This document shows, piece by piece, positions 124 through 59,113 of a DNA stretch of 64,000 bases. The DNA is from Geosiphon pyriformis uo1. Its lineage: Eukaryota; Fungi; Glomeromycota. The translations under genes were made by a program, and so were the position numbers. The stretch's first letter is position 1. The number at the start of each line of letters is the position of its first letter. The notes below the pieces were generated by a model. The model ran no database searches. It saw only the letters and a program-made list of their open reading frames with translations, and was not told the origin of the DNA. The DNA is taken from NCBI GenBank assembly GCA_016748015.1, contig JAAOMT010000710.1, forward strand, positions 1 to 64,000, in the 5' to 3' direction.

Positions 124-2127
124 ATGGCAGAAGAAGAGTCACAAGTAAGCGTAGTTCCGTCAATCCTGGATGTCCCATTAAGGGATGGAACAAATGCGAC
201 AAATGCTTCATTCAGGAGGGTTCCGCATTCCCGATCATCTTCTACTTCCTCTGCAGCTTCAATTCATGGCTTAGAGGATTCGTTTGAATTTATTGGGTCT
301 GACTCTCGAGACTTAAATAACATAGATTTGCACATCAATGGAAATTCACAAGGTAAATATATATATTCTCTGAATACTGCTAGTCACATAATCAAAATAA
401 TTTCTTTTTACTGACACTTCTCGATATGAAAAGAAGGTGAATATGCTGATGCATATAGTTCGTCTCCTTCAGAAAATGAAGAAGATGGTCAAAATTTTCC
501 CGACGAAGAAGATGTCATAAATCCATCCCAAAGACTGGCAAAGCTTCGCAATACCAAACGTCAGCCATTTTCCACCCCTACCAATTTTCGTGTACTGTAT
601 GTTGGTTCGCCCCCAAATGAGCAGTTGAAACAGACGCTGTTTCACAAATTTGCCGAAGCCCTTTCTAGCATTTTTTGGGAAGAGGCTAACAGCAATCTTC
701 AAAGCAGTGACATTGGTCCGGAAAAAAAGAGCAATCTCTTACCTATAAGTAATTATCAAGAAGCTAGACTTGAATATTACCATGATTCTGGGGTCGCCAT
801 TAGCGAAGCAGATTTTACTAATCGCCCTTACGAGGAAGTTCTGACCTATCTTCAAAATCAATTCCAGAAAAAAGAGAACGACGATGATCTGATTGACTTA
901 TGCATTTTTTTTATTCCCACCGACATCATAATTTTAAGCCGTGACATTCTACCTTTCATGAAAAAGTTACAAGGAAAAGTTACCCTTTTCCCGCTAATCG
1001 CATCAATAAATGACCTAAATGTTTCTGGAATTTACTTCAGAAATGAATGTGAAGAACAACGGCGTTCTATTGCTAAATTTTTTGAAGATAACGGAATAGA
1101 TATCTTCATCTGGAAAGAAGACGGTTTAGTTCACGACCGCAATGCAAAAGGGGAACAGATATCTGGCTGGGTTGAAACAATGTATACTAAAAAGATTCTA
1201 GCTGTTGAAGAATTTGCCAGCTGGGAAGCATCAAAAATATTTGAAGATATGCAACTATTGCGAGAACGCTCTTTAGAAATCAGGAAGGATCGGCAGCATG
1301 ATGAAATGGTGAAGAAGAGAGCCCAGAACTTCGAAAGATTTGTTGAGATTCTCAGGACAATAACCATAATGTTAACCATTTTATATACTTTCTATCTGGT
1401 TGTATTTGGAGTATGGAGTTACGCTGAGTGGTCAGTGATTCCTTCAGACTTGAGGGAGTCGTTAGAAGTTGTATCCAGTGCTACCTCCAGGATGCAGGCA
1501 CAAAATATACCCTTTGATACGGCTAATTATGATGATGCAGTGCGATTTGAAGTTACCCAATTATCACCGCGACGTTTCGTTATTGACACATATCCGAAAC
1601 GTCGCAGTGAGTCATATGAGGTCATTGTAAAACATAATCCTCAGATTTTGCGCCAATACGAAGCTAAAGATATGGGAAATGGTATCTATGAATTTGAAAT
1701 TGACCCTACTGGGGCCCAAGGGGATGTTATAGTTGAAATCAGAGATAAACTTGGGGAGATGATAAAGACTATCCAATGGTCTCCAAATAATATTGGGCAT
1801 GTCGCCAAAAAAGGTGCCGAAAATCCGGCTATAAAACAAGAGGCCGAGCAGGGCAAAGAGTTTAGAGGTTATTCTACAATCGCCGTTCACAATATTAAAT
1901 TTTGGGCTTCACTTTTGGTGAACAAAGTTGAATCATTTTTTGAAGCGGTTGGTGAAAATCTTAGTTTTGTCGCCCATAAAGCAGCTTCATGGGCCAGCTC
2001 TACCAAAGAAGAAATTCAAGCGGGAATCCCTATTTTTTGGAACAAGGTAAAAGGTTGGGCAAAATACTTGAAAGATCGCATTAATGATGGTCGTCAAAAT
2101 ATAGTTGCTTATTTTGAAGAAGATTGA
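124..2127 (+). CDS. Two-exon gene: degenerate septin-like P-loop domain, one transmembrane helix and a C-terminal beta-rich domain
   Basis: ATG at 124. GTAAAT donor at 353, CTGAC branch near 411, and AG acceptor at 433 or 436 keeps frame with the 500-aa ORF 625-2127. FRVLYVGS...KQTL sits at the septin G1 position and DLCIFFI...DILPFMKKLQGKVTLFPLIA resembles the septin core (LYFI...DIEFMKRL..VNLIPVIAK). Hydrophobic ITIMLTILYTFYLVVFGVW. CpG retained and no stops. Confidence 0.75.
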
Positions 2128-2540
2128 AGGGTTTTATGAGCATTTACAAGAGTAATTTTTTTACTTCTTAAATCATTAGTTTCCCCATGTTTTAGAATGT
2201 GTCTTGTTATTTGTTGCATATTTAAATTGTAAAAGTTTAACTAGTAATATGAGTAAAGCCAGTTCATAATATTATCAATGCTTTGCTGAAAACATCGTAT
2301 AAAGATTGCCTGTATGCATCTAAGTTTTCAATGCTTCAAATCGTGAATGTGCCAAGTTATTGGAGACAGGAGCTTTAAAGTTGTGACCGCGTCAAATTTA
2401 AAGTTTCCCAGTTTGAAATTTTCGAGAAATTGAGAAATGAACTTTTTTCAGGCTTACCAAGATTTGCTTAATAATGCCTATAAATAAAAATAGTGATCGC
2501 AAAAATAAATACTCCACCTTTTTCTCTTCCTACCTCCCTC

Positions 2541-2666
2541 TTTCCTGAGCTAACTTCAAAAAAGACTGATAACACCGTCACCATCACCCCTGCTACCAAG
2601 AAAGGCTACCTCTACGGGCGTGTCTCTAGTACAAAGCAAAAAGAGGATCTCGAGCGACAAAAGTAA
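2541..2666 (+). pseudogene. tnpA: IS607 TnpA serine recombinase remnant
   Basis: Frame starting at 2604 reads GYLYGRVSSTKQKEDLERQK*, the Y-x-R-V-S catalytic serine motif followed by QKxDLERQ. The rest of the domain is deleted. Not in the ORF track. Confidence 0.85.
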
Positions 2667-2689
2667 CTCCCCTTTCGATTTTCAACCTA

Positions 2690-4315
2690 GGAACTCAGCG
2701 ATATCGGGTCAGTTTTCAATTTCAAACGATCGGGACTTGAGACCCTATTGGAACGAAAAAGCGGAAGGGTATCAGAAATTGTGGCCACCTAGCGTGATAG
2801 ACTTTGGGAATTTGCCTTCGACCTCTTTCAATATACATTCTTCCTCCTTTCTGCAAGACTCAGGGTTCTCTTCGACAATACGACCTCCGACGAGCATGAA
2901 CTCTCACAAGACATTCTTCCCATCAACACAGTCTTTATCTGCCGCATGCAGAGAAGGAGAGCTGCCTGTTTTTGATGAGAGCGCCAGAATAGGCGAAAAG
3001 CGCAAAGGAAAAGCGGGAGCAGCTCGTCCCAAACGTCGGAAGAGGCAGGACACTCTCAACTGTACACTATTAATCAAGGTGTATCCGGGCCATTCTCAAA
3101 GGCAGCTCTTGAAGTGGTGGATAGGCTTGAGTTGACATCGCGACTTTCATACCAAAAATTTCTATATTGGTCAATCAAAACAGGTCTCAATCTACCAAAG
3201 ATAAACTTAAACTTTACACATATCTTTGGGCAGGAAAGGATGCTAATGAATACGAAGACAAGAAACTCCAAAAAGCCGCCACATGGGCGAGCGAAATGTT
3301 GTGTGTCTCGGAATGTTGTTTCGGGGATATCCATGGCAAAGCGCTCAAGAATATTATCGATAAGGCAATCGATGAAGCATTGATAGGGAAGAAGTAATTA
3401 AGCATAATACGAATCGACAAGGTCTATCTGTCATTTCGGTCTCGAAAAGATCTGCGACAAACAATGATAGATTTTTCGAAATCCACATGGAACCGTTTCT
3501 ATGTCACTCATCTCCATAATCCATCAATGCTTACTACGGATCGTTATAAGCCTACCATCGTTCTGGGTAATGAAAAGTGTGCTTTACGGCCTCTTCATTT
3601 CAAAAAAAAAAGAGGGATATATAAGGTGGCCCGGTTCCTCACAAGACAATTTCGGATGGCAAGCTCATTTAATATCGCAAAACTAACAAGTGGACGTTTG
3701 CTTGGGTTTACGAGACGCAAAAGCAGCTCTGCGAAACCCAAGCGGATGGCTCGGTTCATGCAATCCCCATTGGTCCTGCCGTCCGTACACCTTTTACATG
3801 TACTCTCCCACGGAAGGTGTAGGCAAGTTTAAACGTTCTATTGGATATATAGCTCGCATTTTAAGGTACTTGGATGATTTCATTTGCAAAAAGTATAAGT
3901 TATTAGTATCCTACTCAAAATGTAATAATAAAATGACCTGGCGACTCAATAAGGCGATTTTTCGGATGCGGCGAAAAGTTATACGTCTGCAAAGTGAATT
4001 CGATATCATTATCATCCCTCCTTTTAAAGTGTCGAGCATAGTGAATCGCAAGACAAGAAGGATTACACGAAAAACTGTCCGGAAAATGCTATGTTGGACT
4101 CATTATCGCTTTCGATAACATCTGATCACTAAGGCCGAGGAATTAGGGCCCGTATTATTATCCAGAACGAAGTTTGCACATACAAGACTTGTAGTCAATG
4201 TGGTAAAAATCCAAAGAATCGGAGGGTCTAAAAATTACAACTGTCGGAATTGTGAGATATAGATGAAAATGGGGGCTCGGGAGATCTTCCTTCGAGCATT
4301 GCTTGATGGAGCAGG
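2690..4315 (+). pseudogene. tnpB: Fanzor2/TnpB-like RNA-guided RuvC nuclease, frameshifted
   Basis: N-terminal DLRPYWNE...LWPP extension. HTH-like IKVYPGHSQRQLLKWWIG. RuvC-I IGPAVRTPFT at 3769 (DPGVRT with D>G). IIIPPF at the canonical RuvC-II site. RKMLCWTHYRFR. NEVCTYKTCSQCG..CRNC (alternative Glu plus Zn ribbon). RuvC-III DENGAREIFLR. Confidence 0.85.
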
Positions 4316-4699
4316 AAATCATAGTCGCTACATTGTATTGCCTATTATTGATGTGTTACAATCCATCCGTATTAGATACAGAATTTATCATTATTCTTAT
4401 TATCCTAAGAATTCAAGGAAAAAAATAAAGATAATTCAGTGAGATTTTTATTAAAGAACAATCTGCTAAAATCCAAAAAAACTCTTTGGCCAGTTTCAAG
4501 AGACTGAAATAGAAGAAATGTTGAGTATAAACTGGACAAAATGAATATAGACAATTTTTCCCTTACTGTTGAGAAGTTTACAAAATAAATACTTCGATTT
4601 TGATATTTTATTGATAATAATCTGTATATTATAAAAAAAACTAAAGAAGCTTTGCCAAGCCAACCAAACAAACTGCATGTTTTACTTAATTACAAATCT

Positions 4700-6480
4700 T
4701 GTTAAGTGGTTAAAATTTATCATGTTTATTATAGTAATCTAACAAATGAAAACTTTGAAAAAATAGCAACAGGCATATAAAAACAATTTGTTAAAAATAA
4801 ACAAATTAATAATAAATATTTTTAAGATACATAACAAAAATAAGCTTGAAAATTTAAAAAAAAGTAAATTACTTATTTAAAAGTATATTTTAATATTTTT
4901 GCAAAATTTTGGTTTAAAAAACAAAACCAAATTTAAGATAAATTAAAATTTAAAATGTAAATAATTTTCTAACTTTTTATTATAATTAATAGCAATCTTT
5001 TTGAAATATTTAAAGTTTTTTTTAATGTTTTTGGTATTAACTTTGTTGTTTTAAAGCTAATTTCTTTTTTATGAAAAATAAAACTTTCTGTTTTTTTTGG
5101 CTTTTTTAATAATTCTGTATTATTTATATTAATATATAATATCCAATTTTGCTATAATTATAAATAATAATAAATTTTTTATTTTAAATAATTACAATAA
5201 AAATACATTGGTTAATTTTAAAAACAAAACAAGTTATGTTTTTGCATTACTTAATCTATTAAGTTATCTAATTTTAAGAATTAAATTAATTAAATAAAAA
5301 TTACTTTTTTTTGGTTTTTTGGTAGTATTGTTTTTAATAATACATGAAAAATTATTGTTAATTATTTAAATTTTTCTAAATAGATAATTTTTATTTTGGT
5401 ATTTAGTATTTTTCAAAATTAAATTAGCTTTTATTAAGATTGTTTTTTAATTTGTACATAGTTTATTAATATAAAATCTGTATTTAAGAATAATATAAAA
5501 CTGTTTTATATAAAATTTGTTTTTAAAATTTTTTGAATATTATTTTTTAAATTAAATTTTATAGTTTTATTTGTTTTTTTATTTTTAAAATTGCCAAATT
5601 TTTAATAGTTTTTAAATTTATTTTTTTTGTTGTTATTATTTTATAAAATATATTTAAAAATGTTTTTGTTGTTAATATTAAAACAGTTTTTAATACTTTT
5701 AATAAAATTTTTTAAATTATATTGAAATGTGTTAATATTTAACAATATATTATTATTTATTTTAAGTCTTTTAATATAGTTATAATAAAAAATAATATCA
5801 GTATTTTTTTTATGTTAATTAAAAAAAAATTATTATTTTTTATAATTTGTTTAAGACTAAATTAATTAATTTTTTTTAAATATATTGTTTTTAAAATTAG
5901 TAATTTAATTTTTAAGTTTACAGTTATATTTGTTTATTTTTTATTTTTTTAATTTTGTTTAATAATTAAAATATATAATTATTATTTTTGGTTTTTAAAA
6001 AACTTAAATATTATAATTATAAAAACTAATATTTTAAAAAAATATTATATTTAATAAAAAACTTTTGATTTTTTATATTGTTTTAAATATTAAAATCTAA
6101 ATTATCTAATTTTAAATTATAAAATATTTTTATTTTTTTAAAAAAAAATTTTTGTTTAAGTTTATAATTGGTTTTAATATTTTTAAGTATTATTTTATTA
6201 ATGCTAGATTTTATGTTAAAACTTTTGTTTTATTGGTTTTTTTGTTATTGTTCTATTAATTATTTTTGTTATTTTTGTTTTTATAATTGTTTTAAATTAA
6301 TTGTTTTAATATTTAAGTTGTTTAAATTAATTATTAAAATTATTAGTATTTTAGTGTTTTTAGTTATAAAGTTAATTAGTATTTTTTTTTAAATATTAAA
6401 ATTAATAAAAAAAAATTTAAAAATTTAAATAAAAACATTATTAATCTTAAAATATAATATAATATAAATGGTTTTTTTTA
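4700..6480. other. Extremely AT-rich tract, probably end-stage decayed repeat DNA
   Basis: Very few C/G and essentially no CpG; only low-complexity I/L/F/K/N ORFs. Confidence 0.6.
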
Positions 6481-6647
6481 ATAATAATTGGGCCTCACTT
6501 ATTAAACAAATAAAAAAAAAAATAATACAAAACTTTTTTCTCTCTTATCTCCAAAAATTCTCAAAAAAGTGCATTTTCTGAAAAAGAAGTTTTTATTTTT
6601 TCTTGTTAGTTTATATCAATATTTCTTTGTATAACAACCCATTTTTC

Positions 6648-18199: not shown

Positions 18200-21100
18200 T
18201 TAGATTTGTCTTATTCATGACAAACCATCAGCATTTCCATTGTCTTTTCCCTTTTTATAATGTATGATATAAGTATATGACAAAAGTGCCATTTTCCATC
18301 TTGACTGTCTGTCATCTCCAAATTCTTGTTTCTGGAGTGATGTCAGTCCTTTGTGATTTGTATACACCTTAAACTTCTGGCTTAAGTATTTTTTCCATTT
18401 TATGACTGCCCAATAGATTGCTAGATGTTCTAATTCTGGTGTTCCATAATTCTTTTCAGCTAGAATCAAACCTCAGCTGGCATATGCAATTGGATGTTCT
18501 CTTCTATCCAATCCTCTCTGAGATAGTACTGCTCCCAATGCTTGACCTGATGCATTAGTGGTGATAATAAATGGTTTACTATGATCTGAATAGATCAATA
18601 CTGGAGCTTGAATAAGCTTTCTTAAGATATTAAATGCTTTTTGCTGGGTTTCAGTCCATTCATACTTTGTATTTTTGGTTTGAAGATTATTGAGTGGTTG
18701 TACTATCTTTGAAAAGTTCTTTATGAAGTGTTTATAATAGCTTGCAAATCCCAAGAATAATTTCAGCTCGGTTACATTGGTTGGTATTGGAAAGTTCTTT
18801 ACTATCTCTATTTTTTCCGGATCTGTTTTTATGCCATCTTTGCTAACTATGTGTTCCAAGAATTTTAGTTCTGTTTTGCCAAAACACTTTTTTGCATTTA
18901 ATTTTAATTCTGCTCATTATAGTCTTTTGAACACTTGTTGGAAATAACATAGATGATTATTGAATGTTTTTGAGAACACATTAATGTCATTTAAGTATAT
19001 AACTACTGATTTCCACAATAAACTGGTATACACAATTTCCATTAGCCATTGGAATGTAGCTAGAGCATTGGTTAAGCCGAATGGCATAACTTCAAACTCA
19101 AAGTTTCCCTCTCTTGTGGTGAATGCCGTTTTTTCTTTGTCAGCTGGATTTATGACTATTTGCCAGTACCCACTATCTAAATCTAATGTTGAGAACCATT
19201 TGTTTCCATTAAAAGTGTCAAATAGTTCTTGTATCCATGAAGTTGGATAGCTGTTTCCACAAATTACACCATTGAGTTTCCTGTAGTCTACACAAAATTG
19301 GATTTTTCCATTCTTTTTACAGACAAGTACTACTGGTAACAACCATGGGCTCATTGATGGCTGAATTAACCCATTGTTAAGCATTTAGTTGATCTCTTGA
19401 TGAATGATTTCATGGCTGGCTGGTGGTATCCTATATGCTTGCTGTTTGATTGGCATTGTATCTCCAGTTTTGATCTAATGCTGAATAATATTAGTTCTGC
19501 CAAATTTGTTTTCATTGGTGAAGATGTCATTGAAATTATTGAGTAACATCTTTAGTTGCATCTGTTAAAGTGAGTCTAGATTTTCCATGTTTATCTGTTC
19601 TAATTGTTCTGACTGTAATAGATAACATTTGTTTCATCCATAGATGGTTTGTGATGTAATGTCCACATATTTACAAAGCTGTGGAAAATCTGGAATGCTG
19701 CTTGGTGCTTGATCTTCAATTTCCATGGTTAAATATCTGAGAGTAGTTTTTTTTGGTATTTCTACAACATTTCCAGTGTTGTTGTAGATGGGAATTTTGA
19801 TATGATTATGATTCTTGGCTGGTATGTGTAGATTGATAAGTCCAATTTCTCTTGATTCACAAAGGGTTGCTTCTGCTTCAAGAATCTGTTCTTGCTTCTT
19901 CTCTCTTTTTTCTATTGCTAACATGTATTGGCTATATGGTAGAATGGAAATTGTTTGACTGGTTGAAATAATTTTTTCTTGGCCAATAATTTTTTCTTCC
20001 ACTATATTAACTGATACATCTATTCTACCTGTAGATCCAAATTCCTGTATTCCTTTTGCTGTTATCCCTAATTCTTCTTTGTTTCTCACTGACACTAATT
20101 GAGCTACTTTAACCAGAGGCAGAAATATTGCCTGTGCTATTTTTTTATTTGGCTCTATAATATAGGTCTTTTTTGAGTTATTTTGTAGCATGGCAATGAT
20201 ATTTCCTACATATTTTGTGTCAATTATTCCTCCTTTTATATTTATCCTTCTTTTCACTAGACTACTCCTAGATGCTAATTGAATCATTGTTGTTGCCGGA
20301 ATTTTCAGTGCTATTTTCAAATCAATGCAGGTGTGTGGATGTGGTTCCAATTGGATGGCCTCTTTTCCTGGATACCTTAAATCAAACCTGGCATTAGTAT
20401 CATGCATGTGTTCTGGCATAATATCTTCATTATTATTGCTAAATCATTTAAGTTCCAGTTCCTTGATGAGGTCAGGAAGTGCAATATATTGTTCATAGTC
20501 TGGATTAGAGTTTAAATCTGAATTGGAATTGTTGTCATTGTTATTGCCATATTGAATAGAGCTGGAACCAGTGTTTTCATCGTCATCATTATTGGAGTTT
20601 GAATCAGGATTAAAAATCAATTCCAATTCTGATGCACAGCTGCTGATTGGTTCTTCTTTTTCTGGGATTGTGTAGATTATGTGTGGTGGTAGATTGTAAA
20701 TGAGGTCACACTCATTACAATATTGGAAGTTACATGGAATCAAACAGTGGTCACATAGTCGAGTGTTTATTTCTTCCAACCATTGCTCTTGTTCTTCTCG
20801 AGTAGGTGCCAACCATTGATAATGCTTGTAGAATTCTTCTGGATTGTTCTCAATGTTGCCAAATATATCAAACGTTAGGACGTATTCAGATTCAAGCAGA
20901 GATAGGGGGTTGTTTTTGATTTCTAGTAGTTCACTGGTTGTCACACCTTCTGCCTTTGCATTCATCATTCTCCAGAGTTTATGTTTGTTGTGTGAATATC
21001 TTTCCAATCATCATAATGTTTGTTTCCAGGCATCATCAATTGGTGTTCTCTTGCATACCCAATCATTGATTAGTATCATATACTGGCAGGTTTCATCACA

Positions 21101-24100
21101 TGTTCCTCCTCTCCCAGGAATGTTATTCCACATTCCTTCGTTGAGAAGAGTTTCCCCACATGCTAAACATAGTGTATTATCCCATTTTCCTACTCGTTTT
21201 GGTCTTTCAAAGTGTTCGACAAGGTATGCATGACAATAGAACTTAGTTGCCATCTGGTATTCTTTGTTATCGCCACAGCAGACACTCATTAATGACAATT
21301 TTTTGCCTCAATCGATGCATATAAGCTTTGGTCGGCGATAGCTCAATAATTGTGGTGGTATATATGTATAAAGAGTGTAACTGGCAGTTGGTAGTGGCTT
21401 CTCTTCCTTCATTTTTCCTTTCTCTTTTTTTCTCTTATCCCATCCCCAAATTGGTGGTTCTTCTAAGTCATGGTTGGTGTCCTAGACTTGATCTGCATTC
21501 CAGGTAGGTTCTGTTCTCTTTTGTTTTTCTTTGCCATTGTCATTTTATGAGAGTATTGGCAGTAGCTCGTTGTGTTTTTCGTCAGTCCATGAGACTTGAT
21601 ACGCTTTCCAGGTAGGTTTTGGTTTTTCTTCTTTGAGGTTAATTAGTGGTGCTGTGGTGTTGGTAGCTTTAAAGTGACCACACGTTGCTGGTACTTGCGT
21701 GTGTTGACTATTCTGGCTGAGTACTAATTCTTGAGTCATCCAATTGAGCACAGTGTTAGTTTTGGATAGCCAGTTATTATCAACTAACACTTGATATTGG
21801 GTGGCTTTTATCACCAGAACTTTAATGGGTACTACGATGCCATTGACTTCAATTAGGAAGTCATCAATTTCACCAATTGGAGTTTTGGTGGCTCTATCTA
21901 CAGTGATAATCCTGGTGCTGGCAGCACAATCAACTTGGTGACCTAATTGATCCATGAGTTGTTGTGTGATGATGCTGTCTGCTGAACCACTGTCAAGAAT
22001 TAATTTGATGAAGTGGCCATCAACCTTGGCATCAATGTACATAGCCATGATTGGTTTCTCTTCAAATGCTGCTCCACTGAATAATGGCGTATCTGATGAT
22101 TTCTCAAGTTTGAATAGGAAGATGGCATCCAAAAATTCATTTTTGGTGATTGTAGCAGGTGGAATATTATTGGTAGGTGGTTGTTGTTGTTTGATTCTCT
22201 GATTGCTGGAGGTGGTATCTTCTGGAGTCATCAAAAAACTTAAATAGTGTTGAGAATTCGGGTTTTAGGTGGGATCGGTGCCCAAATTCTACTAACAAGA
22301 TCTTGATTGTTGGTGAGAAGAGCTGGAAATTGGTTGATGTACAACCATCACCGATCTCCAGTTTTGGATGATTCTCAATCTTGGGTTTCTTGATGTCATT
22401 TGAATTGGATTTGCTGGTGGTGTTTGAATGGTGGGTGTTTGATAGATTGCTGGTGGCTGTGGTTGATATATTATTTATGGCTGCACCTGATAAATTGCTT
22501 GTGGCAGTGGTTGATAAACTGGAGTTTAATAAACTGGCAGTTGATAAATTGGTTGGTACATCATAGGCAGATAAGTGGGTTGGTATTGGTCTTAATTCAG
22601 GTGATGGTTCAGAGTTTGAAACTGGCAATCGGGGTTTCTATATTAATTTCCTGGTCATAGATTGCTATAAGTATGGCAGTTGGCTCTGATGTGTTCTTGT
22701 TTATCACAGTTGTGGCAGACATGCATCTCTGGCTGCCATAACTGATTGGATGATGATGATAGATGTGACTGATTTTGGAAACGATTTGCATTTCCCTGAT
22801 TGTTATGCCATTGAGAAGATTGATAAATTGTGTGATTGTCAGCTAAGTATTCCTCTAATTTCTGATTAATTGAATCACTGAATTGCTTCAATTTAGAATC
22901 CAATTCAGATGATCCATTCATTGCTAGATTCACAGCTTGAGCATGATTAGCTTCTAGTTCAGCTGCTTCAAAATCTTTGGCGTATGTGACTGTGGTTGGA
23001 AGATTTACTGGGTACATTGGACGTACTTGTTGTAGGATGCTACTGCACAATTCTCTAATAAATTGATTTAAAATCTGTGGTGCTGTGAAATAGTCAGCTT
23101 GGATGGCTTGTATTTGGTGTAGATTTCTATGGAAGCATCCCAAATAGGTAGTGACTGCTTCAGTGTCTCCTTGTTTGATAGTTGTAAAGATATTGGCTAA
23201 TTTGTTAATACTATTATTGTTGTTAAAGTACTGCAAGAATTCAGTTTTGAATTCATTAAAATTTTGGGGTTTGACAGCAAGGCTTTAATATCATGCATCA
23301 GTAGTATCCTAGAGAAAATAAGGGATTGTTTGCATTGCTCTAGCATTATTTCAATTATCGACTGTAATGGCTTTGGCCATGTCATTTAACCAGACTTGGG
23401 CATAATTTTCTTTACCATTGAATTTGTCAAGTTTTACGATAGATGCATAAGCCATTTGTTGTTGCTGTGATGGTAGAAGTTGTTGTTGTTGTTGGGATGG
23501 TACTGGTGGCAGTTGTTGATTTTGTTGGTTCAGTGGTTGGATGGGCTGGCCAATTGGTTCAATGGGTGGTTGATTGATGATGATAACTGGAGATAAGTAT
23601 TGATTAATTACTTCAGAGTTTGGATTGTTCTGATTTGGTGGGGTTTGAATATTCAGAGTGTTATTTTCTGAATTGTTTAAATTGGGCTGGATTTGAAAGT
23701 TTGGGGTTTTAATTTCCGGGTTTTTTAGGATCGGGTTTTGGTAAGTAAATTCTTAATCCTTAAATTCTTCTTCCTCTTCTACTTTTTGTTCTCCTTCCAA
23801 TTCAGTAATTTCCTAAGAACTCACAATTCTGAAATTTGGTTGAGGTGGTGGTGATCAAAATCCTGATGGCATCAGTGATCAAGATTTAAATTCTTCAAAA
23901 TACTTGCCATATGGTCCTAGTAGATCCTCTTTCTTTTGTTTATTTTGGAATAGAAAACGTCCAAATGCTGATGTCACATTTGATGTGGATGCATCTGTTG
24001 ATAATATATTGATGGCACTTCTAAGAATATAGTGGTAGGATGGGTTGTTTAGGAACTTAACTCTAGTTTTCTTCCAAGTAAGTGGTTGTATCTTTTGAGA

Positions 24101-36960: not shown

Positions 36961-38327
36961 TTATTGTTCTATTATAATTATTGGTTCTAAATTTTGAGAA
37001 ATATCTTCAGGATTAATTAAAGGGGAATGTGTACCAATTTGTGGAATTAATGGTTCAGGATTGTTTTTGGAATAATAGTGTTTTAATCTGTCTTTATGTA
37101 CAACTTTTGCTAGTATTTTGTCATCAAATCTTAACTTGTATAATCTATTGCCTAGAATTTCGTGGATATAAAATGGTCCATCTCATTTGTTTTCAAATTT
37201 TCCACTCCATTGTTTTTCAGCCTTAGTTCTGTGTAAGAGAACTTTATTTCCAACTTTAAATTTGTTGGTAATAGGTGGTAATTTGTTGTCATGTCTTTCT
37301 TTTTGTTGAGCTTGAGAATGTTCGATATAAGTTGCTACTATTCTTTTTTTTCCTTTCAGTGTACTAAGAAGAGTGTAGGTCCTTCTTTGGAGTGTTTCTT
37401 GAAAGTTCTCTTCATTAATTGGTTGCACAGGATATGTTTCTACTGTGAAATTAATTGGTAACATTGCTGTTCTTCCATAAGTTAAATCAAATAGTATGTG
37501 TTTTATAGTATCTTGTTTTAGTGTTCTGTATGCTAGTAACACTGATGGAATAAAAATATCTCATTCCTGCTCAAAGTCTGTTGAGACTTTGGCTAGAGAT
37601 TCACACAATGTTCTGTTGAAATGTTCTACAAGTCTATTTGTTTGAGGGTGATAAGGTGATAATAGAGGTCTTTTGACATTGAATCATTCACAAATTTCTT
37701 GTATTAAGTTGTTCACAAAATGTGTTTTTGATCAGATAAAAGTTTAATTGGACATCCATGTCTACAAATAATGTTTTCATAGATGAAATTTGCTACTGAT
37801 TTTGCATCTGCTCTTTGGATGGCTTTAGCTTTAGGCCATTTGGTGAAATAATCTACTGCTACTGCAATATAGCAATTTCTTTGGGTTGTGATAGGTAATA
37901 GTCTGACTAAATCAATTCCAACTTTGTCAAAAGGTTGTCCAACTTTGATTGGATTTAAAGGTTCTGTGGGGCGAGTTCCTTCTTTTCTTTGACAACTATC
38001 ACAAAATTTTACATATTGTCGAATGTCTTTTTGTATGTGAGACCAAAAATAATGTTCAAGAGTTCTTTGAATTGTTCCATCTCTTCCCAAGTGTGCTGAA
38101 GACGGATCTGTGTGCATGTTATATAAAATTGTTTCTTTTTTATTCTCTTGTACTAATCTGAATGGTTGGTTTGGGTTTCTGTGATTTTTATAATAAATTT
38201 TGTTGTGGTGTATGAAATATTGCTTTGATTGGTGTTGTAAACAATGTTTTTCACTTGGAGACCAATTCTCTGGCATGATAAGAGTCTCCAAATAGTTTTT
38301 AAGATTGCTGTAGTTTTTGGGATCTAT
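36961..38327 (-). pseudogene. Element 2 integrase
   Basis: MHTDPSSAHLG...CDSC, VGIDLV, LLSDQ, DGPFY. Ends LEPIIIIEQ*. Confidence 0.88.
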
Positions 38328-38384
38328 TGTTGTTTGGTTATTTTGTTGGTAGGTTGGTAAGTTATGGTGGAATTGTTGTTGGTA

Positions 38385-41300
38385 TTAGTCTTGTCTCATT
38401 TTTGAGAGGCTATCAACATTGGTGTGTAGTTTTTCTGGTTTGTGATGTACAATGTATCTGTAGTCTGCTAGGAAGTCATTCCATCAAGACTGTTTGGTAC
38501 TTTGTTCAGTTTTCTTTTTATTAAGCCATTTGAGGCCAATATTGTCAGTTATTATGTCAAATTTTTTTTTATTCTTCAGGTATTGTTGAAAATGTTTAAG
38601 AGCCCAGATGACTGCAGTGGCTTTCAATTCAGTTGAGCCATATTTGAGTTCTGTTGGCTTGAGTGTTCTACTGGCATAGGCAATGACTTGTTCCTGGCCA
38701 TTTTCATTCAATTGTGATAAAATAGCACCAAATGCTATGTATGAAGCATTAGTGGCTAATTGGAACTGTTTGTTGAAGTCTGAGTAAGCAAAAACTGGGG
38801 CTGTTGTCAATTTTGTTTTGAGAATTTCAAAAGCTTTTTGTTGTTTTTCAGTCCATTTGTATGGCACGTTTTTGTTGGTAAGATAATTGAGTGGTTTGGC
38901 AATTTCTGAGAATTCTTTTATGAATTTTTGATAGTAAGAGGCTAATCCTACAAATTCTCTTAGTTCTGTGGTATTTCTGGGGGTTTGAAAGTTTTTGACA
39001 GCACTGATTGTTCCTGGATTTGGTTTGACTCCATCTTTACTAACTATGTGTCCAAGAAAGATCAAGCTTGTTTTTCCAAAGTAACATTTCTCAATGTTTA
39101 ACTTTAATTCTGCTTTCTGTAATTGTTAAAAAACTTCTCGCAGGTAAATGAGGTGGGCTTCAAAGCTTGGTGAGTATACATCAGTATCATCAAGATAGAC
39201 AACTACTGATTGCCATAAAAGCCCTTCATATACAACATCCATGCATTGCTGAAATGTTGCTGGTGTATTACAGAGTCTAAAAGGCATAACATTGAACTTA
39301 TAGTTTCCTTCTTGAGTAGTGAATGCTGTTTTGGGTCCATTTTGACTTGCCAGTATTCACTTTTCAAATCTAAAGTTGAGAAGAACTTGGCTTTTCCTAG
39401 AGCATCTAGCATGTCATTAATTCTTAGAAGAGGGTAGACATCTCCAATTGTAACATTATTTAGTTGTCTATAATCAACACAGAATCTGATTTTTCTATTT
39501 TTCTTTTTAACTAAAACTACTGGTGAGGCCCAAAGACTTCTTGATGGTTGAATCAATTCATTATTGAGCATTCTTTGGATCTCTTCTCTAATGAATTGGT
39601 GGCTGGCAGATGGCACTCGATAAGCTTGTTGATGTTTTGGTGGAGCATTTCCTGTATGGATCTGATGTTGAACAATGTTCGTTTTTCCCAAGTCATTGTT
39701 GTCTTTGCAAATATATCTGCAAATTCAGCTATTAATTGTTTTAATTGTCTTTGTTGTTGAGATTCTAAAAGACTCATGTTGATTTGAGAGAGTTTTTCTT
39801 TTAAAATGTGGTAGTTTTTAGTGGTGGAAATAATATTTGGATTTGGAAGTAGAGTGTGCTTTACAATTTCAATGAAATTAGAGACAATTTGAGGATTTTT
39901 ATCTTGAAAGATATTGCTGTGTATGATTCCAATTTCTAATTTGTTTAATAAGACAATAGGGTAATTATTGGGGTTGTAGAATATAACTCAAAATTTTTTC
40001 ATTTCTTTGGGAATATAAATGTTTGGAATTGATATTTCATCCTTCAAACAAATTTGTTCATTGGATTCAAAGATTTGTTGGGTAGTAGTGGGTTTTGAGC
40101 AAGTGTAAATTTCATGATGTTCTCCAAAATGTGAAATGATAATTGGTTGTAGAAGTTGAAGAATCTGGTGAGATTCATTTTATATATTAAGAGCTATGTT
40201 TACTGGAACTGTAAATCGTCCAGTTGAACCAAAACCTTGCATTCTTTTTTCACTTTTTCCCAATTGTTCTCTGTTGTTAACTGATTGTAAACCCGAAATA
40301 TTAATTAAGGATAAGTAAATTGCTTGAGTGATTTTTTCAGCATGTTCAATCTTGAATGGTTTGTCTGTTTCATTCTGCAACATGATGGTAATGTCTCCAG
40401 TGTATCCTGTATCTATAACTCCTCCTTTAATATTGATTCCTTTGCTTGCCAATCATAATTTGGAGGCAATTTGAATCATTGCTCTTGGTGGTATTTTAAG
40501 AGCAATTTTGAGATTGATTTTTGTCAAGGACTTTGGTTGGAAAGCCAAAGTATCTTTTCTTGGGTATCTTAGATCATATCCAGCATCAATTTTGTGTGCT
40601 TTTTCTGGTCTGATTCCTTGGCCATGGTTGTCAAAATATTTAAGTTGTAGAGATGGTTGCTTTTTAAAAAGATAGATAGAGGTGGTTGGTAGTTCTTCTA
40701 CTAGTTCAGATACTCCAAATTTGATTTTATTTTCATTATTCTCATTTGGCAGAGGAATGCTAAGAGCATAGCATTCTAAACACCATTGGTCATCACAAAG
40801 CATGATGCATTTTTCATATAATTAAATGTTTATTTGCTCTAATTGTTGAATTTGAGCTTCTTTGGTCAGATATGTGTGGCTTGCAATTTGGTGATATGTT
40901 TCTGCTTCATCTTCATAATCAAATCCAGCTAATTCTATGGTGTACTCAATGTATTCAGCTTCTTTTATTTGGCGTACATCTTCTTGGGTGGCTCCATTGA
41001 TTAAAGCCATTGCTAAGTTAAAAATCATTTCAGCATCATGTGGGTAATGGTATAGTTTGTTGAGAACACTATTGTATACTGCATTAAATGGTGTTTCTCT
41101 TCTCACTTTTTCCAAAATTGATAGAGCATATTGACAGGTTTGATCACATACTCCTTCTCTCATTACAACATCAATTCAGTTGCATTTTTTTGATAACATA
41201 TTTCCACATGTAAAGCAAGGTGTGTTGTACCATTTTTCACTTCTTTTTGGAGATCCAAATCGTTTTCTATAGCATGCTTTGCAAAAGTAACAGGTACAAG

Positions 41301-43995
41301 TTTCATATTCCTCTTCTGGAAAAATACATGCTCCCATTGATGAAAGTTTTTTGTTGCAATCTTTGTATTTGAGTAAAATATAGGGTGGTTGTTTCTATAG
41401 TTCTGGTGTAGAATATCTAACTTTCTTTCATCCTCTTGATTCTTCAAAAATCTCTTGTTCTGTTTTCTCAGTCCAATTGGATGTTGATCTAAGTGCCATA
41501 TAGGTTTCAGTAAGTGGTATTTCTTTCTCCTCTTCATATTCAAATACTGGGGGTTTTTCTAATTGTTTGTTAAAAGTACCACAAGTAGCAAGTACTATAG
41601 TGTGTTGTCCTTGGTATGAGATTTTTAGTTCTTGAGTTTCCCAATCTAAGTTTGCATTGGCTTTAAGAAGCCAATTATTTCCAACCAGAGCTTAATATTG
41701 GGGTGTATCTATGACTAGCACTTTGACTGGAATGGTGATTCCATTAATGGTGAATGGAAAATTGTCAATTTCTCTTACTGGTGTCTTTTTCATACCATCT
41801 GCTATAACAATTACAGTTTGGGCTGGTCTGTCAACAGTTCTTTAAAGCTGCTGCATTAACTAATAAGTGATAATACTTCCAGCTGATCCACTGTCTAGAA
41901 TTAATTGGATGGGTTTTCCTTCTACTGTAGCTTCAGTATACATAGCAGTAATAGCTTTTTGTTCATTAACTGCTGTATTACTAAGCAAAAATGGTGATTC
42001 ATTTGCTTCAAATTCGAATGGAAATATATTTGAAAGGTTGGCATTTTGAGCAATTTGAGCTAATGAAATGGTATGGTTGGAAGGATTTGTTCTTGGTACT
42101 GTAGCTTCATCTTTAGAAAGTGCAGTTTGTTAAAAATTCGATTTTTCAGTCATTGTTAAATAACTGGGTTGAGTGTGAAAGTAATTTGGTTTTTGCTGAC
42201 CAGAATTTTGGGGAACTAATTGGTTATTTGGGTTGATTCTATTGTTTTTATTCTGAAATTGATTTTGAGATGTGAATTGGTTATGTTGAACCAATTTTCT
42301 GGCTGGTACTTAATATTGTTGAAGGGGTTGTGTCTGATATTGCTGAATTGGTAAAGGTTGCTGATATTGTTGCTGCATTGGTTGTGGAGCTGGTTAATAG
42401 TAATTGTTTTGATTTTGGGGTCTTGGTGAATAATAATTTGGTGGTGGAGGTTGGTAATAGGATTGTTGTGGTGAAGAATAATGTTGATTACTCCTATTTT
42501 GTTGGTTTCTTTGTAATTTCCTACAATCTCATTTCCAGTGTCCTGGAATTCCACAATAATGACAATTTTGAGGTTGGTTGTTGGATGGTGATTCGAAATT
42601 GTTTTGGTTGCATCATTGTGGGGGTTGATATCTTTGTGGTTGTTGTTGCTGTTGTTGTTGGTTTGTGAAGTAGCTTTCAACCTTCTTTGTAAGTTGGTCT
42701 ATCTTCTCTTCAGCTGCTGAACTGGTTTCTCCAATAGCTAAGTTGACAAGTTTGGTGTGGTTTGCTTCTTCCATAGCCATTTCATAGTTCTTTGCATGTT
42801 TGATGGTAGTTGCTAAGTCTGCTGGAGCATGTGGGTGGACTTTCTTAATCAGTTTGTCTTTTAACCTTGCTATAAACTGGTCCAGAATCTGAGCATCAGA
42901 ATAATAATTATTGGTTTCCAATTGTCGAATCCATCGAAAAAGTTTGTTGAATCTTCTAAGATAAGTCATAACAGTTTCAGATGTTTCTTGTTTGATATTG
43001 CAAAAGTGATTGCGGAGAGTAATAGAGGTGTTGTTGTCAGTGAATTGTTGTAAGAAAGCATCTTTAAATGCTTGCCAGTTTTTAAATAGTTTTTCTAAGT
43101 TTTCAAACCATTCTTCTGCAGTTCCTTGGAGAAAATATGAGATTGCTTTAAGCATTTTTGCTGCAATCCAATCATTTGCATCTCCTGCTTTTTGAACTTT
43201 GTCAAGCCATTTTTGAGGACTGGTATGATTATCTTCACCAGTAAATTCTGGAATCTTTGCAATGTAAGCAGTTGTCATTTTTTTTTTGTTTTCTGTGATT
43301 TCTTTTGGTTCTGATTCAGTTTCTTCACTTTCCAAGCTTTCTGAATGATTACTTTCGTTTTCCTGTAAGTAATCAATGATATTGGCACTTGTTGATATTG
43401 GTTTTTGTTGTTGAGTAGGATTTCTAGGTAACTGAAAATCTTCTGGTCTGGAGAAATGGTTAAGTAGTGAACTTGGTGTTTGTAGTTGAACAAGTGAAAT
43501 TGGAAATGATGTAATAGAAAGTGGTAATTTGACACTGGTTTCTTGTTCAAGTGTTTGCAAGTGTTTGGCAGTTGTTTTTGGTAGTATTGGAGTGTTTGGA
43601 ATGGTTCTTGAGTATTGTTTTACTTTTTGTTTGCCTTTGTTACTTGTCTCTGTTTCTAATTCAAAGTTAAAAGAGTATTTGGGCTGTACTGGATATTTTT
43701 CTTTACAATACTCGATAATATTAAAATTAAGTTCTTGGAAGTAGGTAGCAAGTGTTTCACTGTTCAGGTCTTCTGTTCCCAATTGTGAATAGTGCACTAA
43801 ATTATTGTAGAGGTTGCTTTTAACTTCTGAAATGTTGTAGTTTCCAAAAAGATAATTGTTGATGCAATTTTCAATATATTGGTATACTGATTTCTTGACA
43901 ACTTCAATTCCGTCTGGAATGTTGAATTTTTGCTTACAGTGGGTGTAAATTGACTGATGATATTCTAGAGTTGTTGTGTCTGGTATGGTTGCCAC
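38385..43995 (-). pseudogene. Element 2 Gag-Pol: extended Gag, CCHC, protease, Cys-rich domain, dUTPase, RT, RNase H
   Basis: IPEFTGED capsid start, CHYCGIPGHWK*DC, ILDSGSAGS, dUTPase, FCVDYRQLN, YLDD, ATNAS. Confidence 0.92.
40210..40620 (-). other. dut: dUTPase domain of element 2
   Basis: DAGYDL, IASK, GGVIDTGYTG, KITQAI, RMQGFGSTG. Confidence 0.92.
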
Positions 43996-44040
43996 TTTGA
44001 ATTTGTTGTTGCTGTGTTATTTCCATGGGAAAGCACTAAA

Positions 44041-52944: not shown

Positions 52945-54290
52945 ATAAATGACTAAAAAACAAAAAATTTATCAATAATAATATTTAAATAAAAAAATAT
53001 CTTTTTAAATATGTATTTTTTATATAAAAATCTTTTGGGTTTTTTTATTGTCTATATATCTTGTAATTTTGTTAGAAAATTTTAAATTTAATGCTTAATT
53101 ATTTTTAAATATATAATTTAAAAATTAATAAAACATTAAATAAATAAAATAAAACAAAGTTATTTTAGTATATATATATTTTTGGTTTATAAAAAAAACA
53201 GTTTTATAAACAGAATTTTTTTTAAAAATATGGTTTAAAAAAATTTTATGTTTTTGATTTTACATATTTATTACAAATCAATTTTATAATAAGAACTTTT
53301 ATTTAAAAATTATAATATTTTCTTTTGTTAAAAAATTTTATAAATATTTTTTTATCATAAAAAAATCTTAGACAATTAAAAAAAACCAAGAAAATTTTGA
53401 AAAAATCAACAAAAAATTGATTAATAAAGCAATAATAATAAACTAAATAATAAAACCAATAATAAATTTAATAATAAACTTAACAAAAAAAAATTAATTT
53501 AATTATTTATATTATATTACCAAAATCTTTAATATTGTACAATTATTTATAAATTATTAAAACAAATTAATAAAAATTAAATATTAATAATTTTTATAAA
53601 AATATAAACAATTATAATTTTTTTGGTTTTTAATAATTTTTATAAATAAATAAGATTAATAAATAAATTTAAAAATATTATTAAAAATCGAATTGAATTT
53701 AATTTACCATTTTAAAAAAATTATTACAAATATTTAAATAAAAAAAACTATAAATTTTAAACCAATTTTAATTCTTAAAAAAATGTAAAATAAAATTTTA
53801 TTATATTTTTAATTTAAGATTAAAGTTTTTTAATTTGAAGTTTTTTAATTTTTTATCTAATTTTTCTATTACTTTTTTATTTATAAATTTATTTTATTAA
53901 TAAATATTAATAATAAATAAGAAATATCCAAAAGTTTAATGTTTTTTTTGCAAAATAAAACTAAAATTAAGAGTTTTTCTTAATTAAAAATTGTTTTAAT
54001 TATAATATAAGCATAATTATATGAATTTATTTTACAATATATAAGAAAAAACAAGAATTATAAAAGATGTTTTTAAAGCAAAAAAATTATAAAATCATTA
54101 ATATTTGTTTTTAGGCAAAAATTAATTTAGAATTTATTTAAAAAATAATAATTAACTTTTAAAAAAAGCATAAAAAACAATTAAATATATTAGAAAAAAT
54201 TAAAACTACTACATTAAGAATTTTTTTAATTAGCTATTAAAAAAATATGGTTTTTATATATTTAATTTAGAAAATAATAAAAAATTATTA
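52945..54290. other. Extremely AT-rich decayed tract (similar tracts at 50150-51100 and 61190-61720)
   Basis: Composition only. Confidence 0.6.
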
Positions 54291-57400: not shown

Positions 57401-59113
57401 CTTAGAAATCATAGACACCCATGCCCTCTTCCACAAAACAGGTACCATACCAACAGACAAACATTTATTGAACAGCGCCAACAGGCACCCCAAAACCACT
57501 TCCTCATCATGCTTCCACAACTTATTAGGAATGCCAGACAAACCAGCGGCCTTGCTATTAGGTAGACCACCAACAACAGAAAGTAGCTCTCCCATACTGA
57601 TTGTACACATAACACCTGAAAAAGCATCATTCTGAACATAGTCTAAAGGCACATACTGACAAGCCCAAAGATCAGGAAGCACTGACTGCACAGAGTATTT
57701 CCTTGTCCACCCCTCCATTATCCTGTTCACGCTTGATTTCACTTCTCCAGGCAGCAACACCAACTCATCATCAACTACCAAATAATCCAACACCACCTTG
57801 TAAAAAGGTCTTTCCAATACACTCTTGATCATACTACCTTTGTCCGAACAGAAATTATCCATATGCTTTTCAATCGTCTTCTTGACAGATGTTTCCTTAG
57901 CCAATCTCAACTCAAACATCTTAGACCTTCTGTAATCTCTGTGAACCAATAACAAATGCCTAACAACAACATCAGATTTAACCCCTGAGTCAACCAAGTC
58001 CTTGAAAGCATGAGCCTTCACAACATTCAGAGTTAAAAATTTACTCACAAGACGATTAGTATCAGACAAGTCACCAGAGCAAAACTTCTTAACAATCTTG
58101 GCCACTAACATTTCCAGACCGAAAAACCTAGAAGAATGTATGTTTCTTGAACACTTGAACTCACTAAACCAATGCCTCGAAAACGTCACATCAGCAGAAT
58201 CTACCACAGCCCCCACCAAGACTGCCCACATAGCATTCACATCACCATGCATTTCTGCACCAGAGAACTCCTCACCCAAAGACAAGAGTTTTGTTGAAGA
58301 GAGATCCTTAAATTTGGCCCATTCAGCACAGTCAACATCCTTGATTTTGAACTTCCAATGGTCTCTATTCACTTGCTTATGCAAACTATTCAATCGAACA
58401 TCCAGAAGTCCACCCAAACCGACTGAAACCGCTACTGCCCTGTGATCAGTGTCAAAAAAATCCAAAACAGAGACCACTTAATGACCAGCTACAGCAGAAG
58501 ACAAATTACCACCAACAAAAATGTAATCAATTGTCTTCCCAACTCCTCTTGAGTTGCTCTACGCATAAAAATCAGCCAAATGATGACTAACAAATGAGTT
58601 GACCAAATCCAGACTCAAACAAAACTTGAAACTAGCACTTTTATCAGATCTATTCTCATTAAAGTCTCCACCCAAGATAACAAAATTGCTGGAGTTGACA
58701 GTCTTTGCAATGAGAGAATTAACTTCAGAAGCCTGACTAAACCTAGTCCCAGATGAGACACCAGCATACAACCCCAAAACAGTAACTAAAAGCTTGTTCT
58801 TAAACAAAAGCCGAACAGAAATAACCTGACCAGGAACTTTTTCTATCTTAGAAACATAACGAGCCAAAAAAGTGTTCATAATAATAGCAACCCCAGCACT
58901 CATAAAACCTTTATCCAATCCTGAAGAAAAAATTCGCACTTCATCAAACTTATCCTTAATCTAAGGCCCAGAAAAGGACTTCAACTTTGTCTCAGTGACA
59001 AAAAAAACCATATTTCTCAAGTCTATATGCCAACGAATAACATCCATTTGCTTCGTAAGAACATTGATATCTCGAACATTGCATGTAGCAAATTTTCAGA
59101 CTAAACAGCTCAT
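54428..59113 (-). pseudogene. LINE D ORF2 (APE, RT, RNase H, Cys motif)
   Basis: TCNVR, VTETK, GGDFNE, TDHRAV, KAAG..GI, DMWKAYDSV, GLDQ, FVDN, FTDGS, KVKGHS..GN..AD, CLLC...DHAFTC. Confidence 0.93.

What the first reader, a model, noticed from the sequence alone, without database searches (positions are those of the whole stretch)
2530..4370. IS607-type Fanzor2 element (TnpA plus RNA-guided nuclease) in a fungal genome
A serine recombinase motif missed by the ORF track (GYLYGRVSSTKQKEDLERQ) directly precedes a TnpB-like gene with the Fanzor signature: Pro at the canonical RuvC-II site (IIIPPF) and a relocated Glu before the Zn ribbon (NEVCTYKTC). IS607-associated Fanzor2 is mainly known from giant viruses, protists and molluscs, whereas well-known fungal Fanzors are Fanzor1. 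This copy is dead (RuvC-I D>G, frameshifts), but intact relatives would be candidate compact programmable nucleases and evidence of horizontal or viral transfer.
Basis: partly seen in the sequence, partly recalled or inferred. Interest (0 to 1): 0.75.

Follow-up and report, generated by a model that had tools for sequence, protein, structure and literature searches.

The report
Dead fungal Fanzor2 transposon, overlapping genes
This is a broken copy of a jumping gene (a transposase plus an RNA-guided DNA cutter) of a kind already catalogued in this fungus; the less ordinary point is that the cutter's front end lies in a second reading frame inside the transposase gene, where conservation across relatives shows it is likely a real, working part of the protein.

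Summary
Window 2459-4369 is a decayed IS607-type element (serine-recombinase tnpA plus Fanzor2) beside a Geosiphon pyriformis gene, and a read contig joins the two. It is one of many decayed copies. It is dead: tnpA lacks its HTH and has five stops; Fanzor2 has 9 frameshifts, 4 stops and RuvC-I D>G. The novelty claim fails: Saito 2023 says Fz2 is broad in fungi and its supplement lists Geosiphon and other Glomeromycotina Fz2. A recent Nostoc donor is not supported (AU p 3e-38 against the one Nostoc copy tested). Ends carry a CCG core (predicted TAM 5'-CCG), and near-complete relatives exist (L006 has both frames open; two carry a GT-AG intron). And Fanzor2's N-terminal ~170 residues are read in the +1 frame inside tnpA: 5 stops against 384 expected in 45 Fanzor2-type elements, versus 84 against 108 in 10 canonical IS607s; this part aligns to the omega-RNA-contacting segment of ApmFz2. 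I found no paper describing that overlap; this scan noted it before on viral and bacterial DNA.

The parts
2459..4369 (+). Whole decayed IS607-Fanzor2 element, about 1.9 kb (complete relatives 2.14-2.26 kb)
   Evidence: Contigs of other copies leave the window sequence before 2459 (6 contigs in X1) and behind 4369 (9 contigs in X1); relatives stop aligning after ...CCG at 4369; lengths
2459..2490 (+). Left-end remnant with the short end repeat (2465-2475) and a TATA-like stretch (2479-2486); the outermost few bases and the CCG junction are lost or displaced (2437-2458 uncertain)
   Evidence: repeat function as TnpA site and TATA function are inferred
2530..3135 (+). tnpA remnant (serine recombinase), HTH-coding 5' part deleted; catalytic motif RVSS at 2619-2630; stops at 2664, 2688, 2790, 2973, 2976; C-terminal tail recognisable to about 3130
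   Evidence: other Geosiphon contigs carry C at 2664 (11 contigs) and C at 2690 (13 contigs), so these two stops are not shared by the family
2563..3135 (+). Fanzor2 N-terminal domain and start of WED, read in the +1 frame inside tnpA; still open for 193 codons from 2554; start codon changed (ATG in 2 other X1 contigs and at the same offset in 12 of 12 relatives examined)
3131..4330 (+). Rest of Fanzor2 (REC, WED, RuvC, zinc ribbon), broken by 9 frameshifts, 4 stops and deletions
3761..3800 (+). RuvC-I, DPG motif with Asp>Gly at 3772-3774
4005..4025 (+). Canonical RuvC-II position occupied by Pro (IIIIPPF)
4166..4265 (+). Relocated catalytic Glu (4169-4171), two CxxC pairs and RuvC-III Asp (4262-4264), split over frames
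4271..4369 (+). omega-RNA scaffold remnant and right end ending in CCG; two deletions, no stable fold in this copy
   Evidence: identity as omega-RNA is inferred from position and fold in relatives
430..2127 (+). Flanking host gene (main exon of Geosiphon pyriformis G9A89_022642, weak septin-like match); context, not part of the element

Best explanation
This is a dead copy of a multicopy IS607-Fanzor2 transposon family of Glomeromycotina fungi, in which the nuclease's N-terminal part is encoded in the +1 frame inside tnpA and is likely translated from its own downstream AUG. Shown: anatomy, host linkage, many decayed copies, CCG at the junctions of relatives, selection on the +1 frame. Inferred for live copies, from IS607 and Fanzor2 literature: TnpA binds the short end repeats, cuts the element out and inserts it at a matching CCG core without target duplication; Fanzor2 binds an omega-RNA made from the right end plus flank, recognises 5'-CCG and cuts the emptied donor site so that repair restores the element. 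Inferred for expression: one capped transcript, first AUG (tnpA) in weak context, next AUG 157 nt on (Fanzor2) with a purine at -3, read by leaky scanning.
For: Host: flanking protein identical to a Geosiphon protein, 5 other hits all Glomeromycotina (6 hits of 7424 candidates); an 8.6-kb contig of run X1 matches 400-2655 without a difference (X1 may be the source of the assembly). Copies: 381, 181 and 145 contigs of runs X1-X3 lie on 400-5000, most under 95% alike, depth over the element about 10-30 times the flank in X1, with joints that skip up to 1.7 kb of the inside; two more Geosiphon gene models are relatives (P0031, P0043), one Rhizophagus clarus fragment (P0036). Relatives: 17 of 45 loci hit the element by blastn, long stretches 65-76% identical; L003, L006, L012 have uninterrupted 593-636 aa nucleases with DPG, shifted Glu, two CxxC and DRD; L006 has both frames open and both ends. 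CCG directly before the left end in 6 of 9 distinct loci and closing the right end in 4 of 6 sequences. Fanzor2: best PDB match ApmFz2 by sequence (E 4e-26) and by fold of the L003 model (rank 1, E 5e-21; Fanzor1 at rank 40 or lower). Overlap: 42 of 45 tandem DPG-type elements have no +1 stop over the ~125-codon catalytic domain (5 seen, 384 expected); 0 of 10 canonical bacterial IS607 (84 seen, 108 expected) and 0 of 4 elements with divergent tnpA; +1 residue conservation 0.286 against 0.195 +/- 0.002 under synonymous shuffling in 37 elements, control 0.277 against 0.269; the profile reaches ApmFz2 residues 77-171, including N82-S83 that contact the omega-RNA. AUG contexts.
Against: No activity, transcript, protein or TAM was measured; no RNA holder was listed. 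The genome assembly was not available, so no intact Geosiphon copy was found or excluded. The 45 elements share ancestry and are not independent. The 9B0L profile score is partly earned by the non-overlapping WED start, and the PxW...LWLP half of the motif did not align to ApmFz2. Most of the N-terminal part is low-confidence in the model (pLDDT under 50 except residues 71-89). 3 of 12 relatives have another AUG before the Fanzor AUG. CCG is absent at 3 of 9 left junctions and from this copy's own left junction.
Confidence: 0.85

Rival explanations
1. The +1 frame is reached by a programmed frameshift or by splicing, giving a TnpA-HTH/Fanzor2 fusion, rather than by its own AUG.
For: The +1 frame opens right at the end of the HTH and the low-complexity linker; several public gene models join TnpA to Fanzor2 (Ambispora, Cetraspora, Klebsormidium rows), though these are predictions.
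Against: An AUG sits 3 codons after the upstream +1 stop in 12 of 12 close relatives; in many viral relatives the +1 frame is open over the HTH too, with an AUG a few bases after the tnpA AUG, which a fusion does not need.
Confidence: 0.12
2. The element came recently into Geosiphon from its cyanobacterial partner (Nostoc symbiosis recalled, not from a call) or from a giant virus.
For: Best named plasmid hits for both genes are Nostoc/Trichormus (39-42%); pro-Fanzors are mostly cyanobacterial; the overlap is also in Symploca L128 and Microcoleus phage L126.
Against: Window RuvC is 61-66% identical to L003, L008, L012 but 30-35% to cyanobacterial and 26-27% to giant-virus copies; it sits in a 6-row clade at 98/94; holding it with the Nostoc copy is rejected, p-AU 3e-38; the pattern scan of species genomes gave 2 loci at 38-43%; near relatives occur in Rhizophagus, Diversispora and Cetraspora and carry a GT-AG intron. 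Ancient bacterial origin of all Fanzor2 and fungus-to-fungus transfer are not excluded.
Confidence: 0.05
3. The open +1 frame is a by-product of TnpA codon choice and the nuclease really starts at the WED domain, as in canonical TnpB.
For: The region is Ser/Pro-rich and mostly predicted disordered; annotators often start the gene late (L124, L125).
Against: Synonymous-shuffle nulls expect 5-12 stops per element and canonical IS607 have them; Trp is kept at one +1 position in 34 of 37 elements; a similar FW...LW...WF motif is visible in Fanzor2 rows of Saito's table from Naegleria, mimivirus, Rhizophagus and Lichtheimia whose tnpA context I did not check (by eye).
Confidence: 0.06
4. Contamination or misassembly.
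For: No single contig spans the whole element; pieces break inside repeats.
Against: One contig joins host gene and element 5' part (400-2655), another joins 4341-5000, and identical pieces cover 2931-3413 and 3492-4364 at single-copy depth in X1; identical pieces also occur in X2 and X3.
Confidence: 0.02

Closest known systems
Glomeromycotina FZ2 entries in Saito et al. 2023 Supplementary Table 1 (Geosiphon KAG9289801.1, KAG9286232.1; Diversispora RHZ45176.1; Cetraspora CAG8554615.1)
   Same: Same family by eye: the printed sequences share long runs with the window read-through, L003, L006 and P0009 (no alignment could be run on them).
   Different: They are listed only as protein rows; no element ends, TAM, tnpA pairing or overlap is given in what I read. 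This particular copy was not among the two Geosiphon rows.
ApmFz2 / ApmFNuc (mimivirus L79, PDB 9B0L) in its IS607 element
   Same: DPG RuvC-I, shifted Glu, zinc ribbon, extra N-terminal domain; top sequence and fold hit.
   Different: TAM GGG against predicted CCG; 22% structural-alignment identity; this family is nuclear, longer (about 600-650 aa) and partly intron-bearing.
NlovFz2 (Naegleria lovaniensis)
   Same: Fanzor2 with measured TAM 5'-CCG and an N-terminal extension.
   Different: Different host; relation to this family not tested in a tree.
Cyanobacterial and phage pro-Fanzor IS607 elements (Yoon et al. 2023; L124, L126, L128)
   Same: Rearranged RuvC; L126 and L128 share the +1 overlap.
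   Different: 30-35% RuvC identity, separate branches.
Canonical bacterial IS607 (H. pylori IS607 and kin, L130-L139)
   Same: MerR-HTH plus serine-recombinase TnpA, no terminal inverted repeats, short core at junctions (GG).
   Different: Non-DPG RuvC-I, tnpA/tnpB overlap of only 4-26 bases or none, +1 frame closed.

Membership tests
IS607 | TnpA serine recombinase with catalytic domain behind an N-terminal MerR-type HTH | tested here: met
   NF033518 E 1e-22 on the catalytic part; HTH deleted in this copy but present in relatives P0008-P0010 and L001-L007
IS607 | No terminal inverted repeats or target duplication; short matching core at the junctions | tested here: met
   CCG before the left end in 6 of 9 loci and closing the right end in 4 of 6; ends share a direct repeat; no empty site was available to confirm
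IS607 | Transposition driven by TnpA | not testable with these tools
   Different flanks at both ends among copies imply past mobility
Fanzor2 | DPG RuvC-I, non-acidic canonical RuvC-II site, Glu six residues before the zinc ribbon, RD RuvC-III | tested here: met
   Met in L003, L006, L012; in the window met except Asp>Gly in RuvC-I and Arg>Ile before the RuvC-III Asp
Fanzor2 | Groups with IS607 pro-Fanzor/Fanzor2 rather than canonical TnpB | tested here: met
   DPG clade 100/99 against 5 canonical IS607 TnpB; window with canonical group rejected p-AU 0.0005. No IS605 TnpB was put in the tree; by sequence ISDra2 TnpB scores E 8e-8 against 4e-26 for ApmFz2
Fanzor2 | Eukaryotic or eukaryotic-virus host | tested here: met
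   intron in L001 and L008
Fanzor2 | Structured omega-RNA at the right end | tested here: inconclusive
   Relatives fold at z -3.6 to -4.6 in 3 of 4, -1.6 in L006; 7 of 34 consensus pairs show a change on both sides; window copy z +0.7; no Rfam match; expression not seen
Fanzor2 | RNA-guided DNA cleavage next to a short TAM | not testable with these tools
   This copy cannot be active; relatives untested
Fanzor1 | Divergent larger nuclease close to SpuFz1, in eukaryotic DNA transposons | tested here: not met
   No Fanzor1 among 15 sequence hits; SpuFz1 at rank 40 or lower by fold; partner is a serine recombinase. No Fanzor1 sequence was in the tree

The most novel reading that the evidence does not exclude
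The Fanzor2-specific N-terminal domain, including residues that touch the guide RNA, was born by overprinting the IS607 transposase gene in bacteria, and this dual-coding cassette survived the move into fungal nuclei, where a mobile, intron-acquiring family with a CCG TAM makes both proteins from one mRNA by leaky scanning; complete copies such as L006 are ready-made compact nucleases whose true start lies inside tnpA.
Probability: 0.55. Interest if true: 0.65.

Novelty: new member of a known kind. Interest (0 to 1): 0.42.

Why it matters
The copy itself is ordinary genomic debris of a catalogued family. The useful results are family-level: defined ends and a predicted CCG TAM, complete relatives to test, and evidence that gene callers cut off or mis-join Fanzor2 because its first ~170 residues hide inside tnpA. 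If the overlap is as read here it explains where the Fanzor2 N-terminal domain came from, gives a rare long dual-coding region in a fungal nuclear genome, and tells tool builders where these proteins start.

Tried and rejected
No whole genome was held, so copies could be seen only through read contigs. Searches with the window's own RuvC fragment found nothing in viral contigs or in the word-indexed protein search; Pfam on single-frame fragments gave only sub-threshold hits. No RNA holder was listed (X3 is probably DNA); run X4 laid nothing. Rfam gave no match. The Atlas look-up of an L038 flank gave only unnamed eukaryotic clusters, a lead only; hosts of the unnamed loci were not determined, and the group label in my tree scripts is not a habitat finding. 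Jiang 2023 supplements gave no Glomeromycotina names. I considered that this copy's open +1 frame (0 stops in 193 codons, 4 of 4 indels in frame, against 11 of 35 downstream) marks domestication; rejected as unproven: there is no start codon, 4 stops in about 390 downstream codons make zero in 190 unremarkable (about 0.14), and some indels predate the insertion. Rows dropped from the stop count: L087-L089, L124, L125 (motif not matched), L140 (not scored); 16 further segments without a scored downstream DPG motif were kept out of the 45 (12 of 16 have no +1 stop). L137 and L139 were classed canonical without a motif match. No complex prediction was run.

Full report
Observation. Reading 2604-2975 through its stops gives an IS607 transposase catalytic domain (NF033518, E 1e-22, model positions 58-184 of 187; Pfam Resolvase E 1e-7). 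The nuclease pieces give no family hit alone, but the RuvC fragment finds 683 proteins at E 0.001 or better in the representative library, and a frameshift-aware alignment to a relative gives 357 of 580 residues identical with 9 frameshifts and 4 stops. The copy is dead several times over: HTH deleted, five stops in the tnpA frame, RuvC-I Asp to Gly, nuclease start codon changed, and the right-end RNA region deleted in two places with no stable fold (z +0.7).

Host and assembly. The upstream gene is identical to Geosiphon pyriformis G9A89_022642; the other 5 of 6 hits are Glomeromycotina. No assembly was held. In run X1, which may be the source of the assembly, one 8.6-kb contig matches 400-2655 without a difference, and further identical pieces cover 2931-3413, 3492-4364 and 4341-5000; no piece spans everything. 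381, 181, 145 and 0 contigs of runs X1-X4 lay on the stretch, most under 95% alike, piling up only over the element, with loose ends at 2459 and 4369 and joints that skip most of the inside. So this is one of many decayed copies, some internally deleted. Other contigs have ATG at 2563-2565 (2 contigs) and lack the stops at 2664 (11) and 2688 (13). Two other Geosiphon gene models and a Rhizophagus clarus fragment are relatives.

Relatives and ends. A scan of metagenome contigs with a close TnpA gave 44 loci; 17 of 45 loci then in hand hit the element by blastn, 65-76% over long stretches. L003, L006 and L012 have uninterrupted nucleases with the full rearranged triad; L006 has both frames open and both ends, 2.14 kb. 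L001 and L008 carry a 91-base AT-rich GT-AG intron that L013 lacks at exactly the same junction, a sign of life in a eukaryotic nucleus. CCG precedes the left end in 6 of 9 distinct loci and closes the right end in 4 of 6 sequences, like the GG core of bacterial IS607 (PMC6188088, passages); it predicts a 5'-CCG TAM, the motif measured for NlovFz2 (PMC10432273, passages). The last 120-130 bases fold well in 3 of 4 relatives with 7 of 34 consensus pairs changed on both sides.

Family. The L003 nuclease's best solved match is ApmFz2 by sequence (E 4e-26 among 15 hits) and by fold (model mean pLDDT 64; rank 1, Fanzor1 at rank 40 or lower). In a 41-row RuvC tree the window groups with L003, L008, L012, P0034 and P0184 (98/94), inside a DPG clade set apart from 5 canonical IS607 TnpB (100/99). 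No Fanzor1 or IS605 TnpB was in the tree. Holding the window with the Nostoc PCC 7120 plasmid copy is rejected (p-AU 3e-38); identities are 61-66% to the close relatives, 30-35% to cyanobacterial and 26-27% to giant-virus copies. The pattern scan of prokaryote genomes gave 2 loci at 38-43%. Recent transfer from a cyanobacterium or virus is therefore not supported; deeper branches are unresolved, and transfer among fungi was not tested.

The overlap. In the window the frame one base on from tnpA is open from 2554 to 3135 and is the start of the nuclease. Over the ~125 codons of the TnpA catalytic domain, 42 of 45 tandem elements with a DPG nuclease have no +1 stop (5 seen, 384 expected from synonymous shuffles; +2 frame 400 against 470), whereas 0 of 10 canonical bacterial IS607 (84 against 108) and 0 of 4 elements with a divergent tnpA (21-33 stops each, AT-rich) are open (75 segments scored, dropped rows listed under Tried and rejected). 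In 37 elements of 46% mean TnpA identity the +1 residues are more conserved than the null (0.286 against 0.195, sd 0.002), with Trp in 34 of 37 at one position; the 10 controls are at the null (0.277 against 0.269). The elements share ancestry, so these are not independent trials. A profile of the region aligns to ApmFz2 residues 77-171, where other TnpBs match only the WED start; this covers N82 and S83, which contact the omega-RNA in the structure (PMC11832414, parts 1-2 of 5 read). The first half of the motif did not align to ApmFz2, and most of the region is low-confidence in the model. The overlap is also in a cyanobacterial genome (L128) and a cyanophage (L126), so it predates the fungal family. 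In 12 of 12 close relatives an AUG lies 157 bases after the tnpA AUG in the +1 frame, with a purine at -3 while the tnpA AUG has a pyrimidine; in 9 of 12 it is the next AUG. Leaky scanning is my inference.

What is known. [quoted passage not shown] Yoon 2023 (passages; supplement rows) lists Glomeromycotina hits too. Bao and Jurka 2013 (passages with Table 1) list yeast Fanzor2; Gilbert and Cordaux 2013 (passages) report IS607-like sequences in fungi, say IS607 ORFs overlap and mention a 100-residue N-terminal insertion in an Acanthamoeba ORFB. I found no description of a domain-long +1 overlap in searches (listings only) or in 'overlap' passages of the papers read; subscription papers, ISfinder and Repbase were not searchable. 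This scan has reported the same overlap on phage, giant-virus and bacterial DNA and dead IS607-Fanzor2 copies in other fungi; I had measured the overlap before looking.

Verdict. Real feature, right family, wrong novelty claim. A new, dead member of a known kind; interest comes from the family-level ends, TAM prediction, complete relatives and the dual coding carried into a fungal nucleus.

Noticed in passing
window 19634-23284 (-): Decayed Ty3/gypsy-like retroelement pieces with gag, aspartyl protease and a dUTPase domain (E 5e-18); dUTPase in an LTR retrotransposon is uncommon (recalled).
   Followed up: no
window 37713-44016 (-): A second decayed Ty3/gypsy-like element: gag, RT, RNase H, integrase.
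   Followed up: no
window 54866-60975 (-): LINE-like element with long ORFs: RRM-like ORF1, RT, RNase H; the stop-riddled stretch from about 6600 (+) looks by eye like an older copy of a similar element.
   Followed up: no
window 4900-6500 and 53000-54000: Extremely AT-rich stretches (GC 9-11%), as from heavy C-to-T decay.
   Followed up: no
L001 1328-1418; L008 1020-1110; L013 1841: Intron presence/absence within one Fanzor2 family: 91-base GT-AG intron in two loci, precise intron-less junction in a third and no intron in the window.
   Followed up: partly
L073, L074, L075, L120: AT-rich viral elements with tnpA turned away from Fanzor2; their tnpA +1 frame is full of stops, a natural control for loss of the overlap.
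   Followed up: partly
L055, L059, L064-L066, L068, L080, L094: Viral loci where only the 3' half of tnpA is still detectable under the nuclease's N-terminal part, as if the overprinted domain outlives the transposase.
   Followed up: no
L125 (Vibrio phage F100) 1323-2970; L124 (Nostoc PCC 7120 plasmid) 1366-3142: Annotated nuclease starts fall inside or after the overlap and tnpA is not annotated, an example of gene callers missing one of the two frames.
   Followed up: no
window 2554-3135: The +1 frame of this dead copy has no stop and no frameshift while tnpA has five stops; 4 of 4 indels are in frame. Compatible with chance, not explained.
   Followed up: partly
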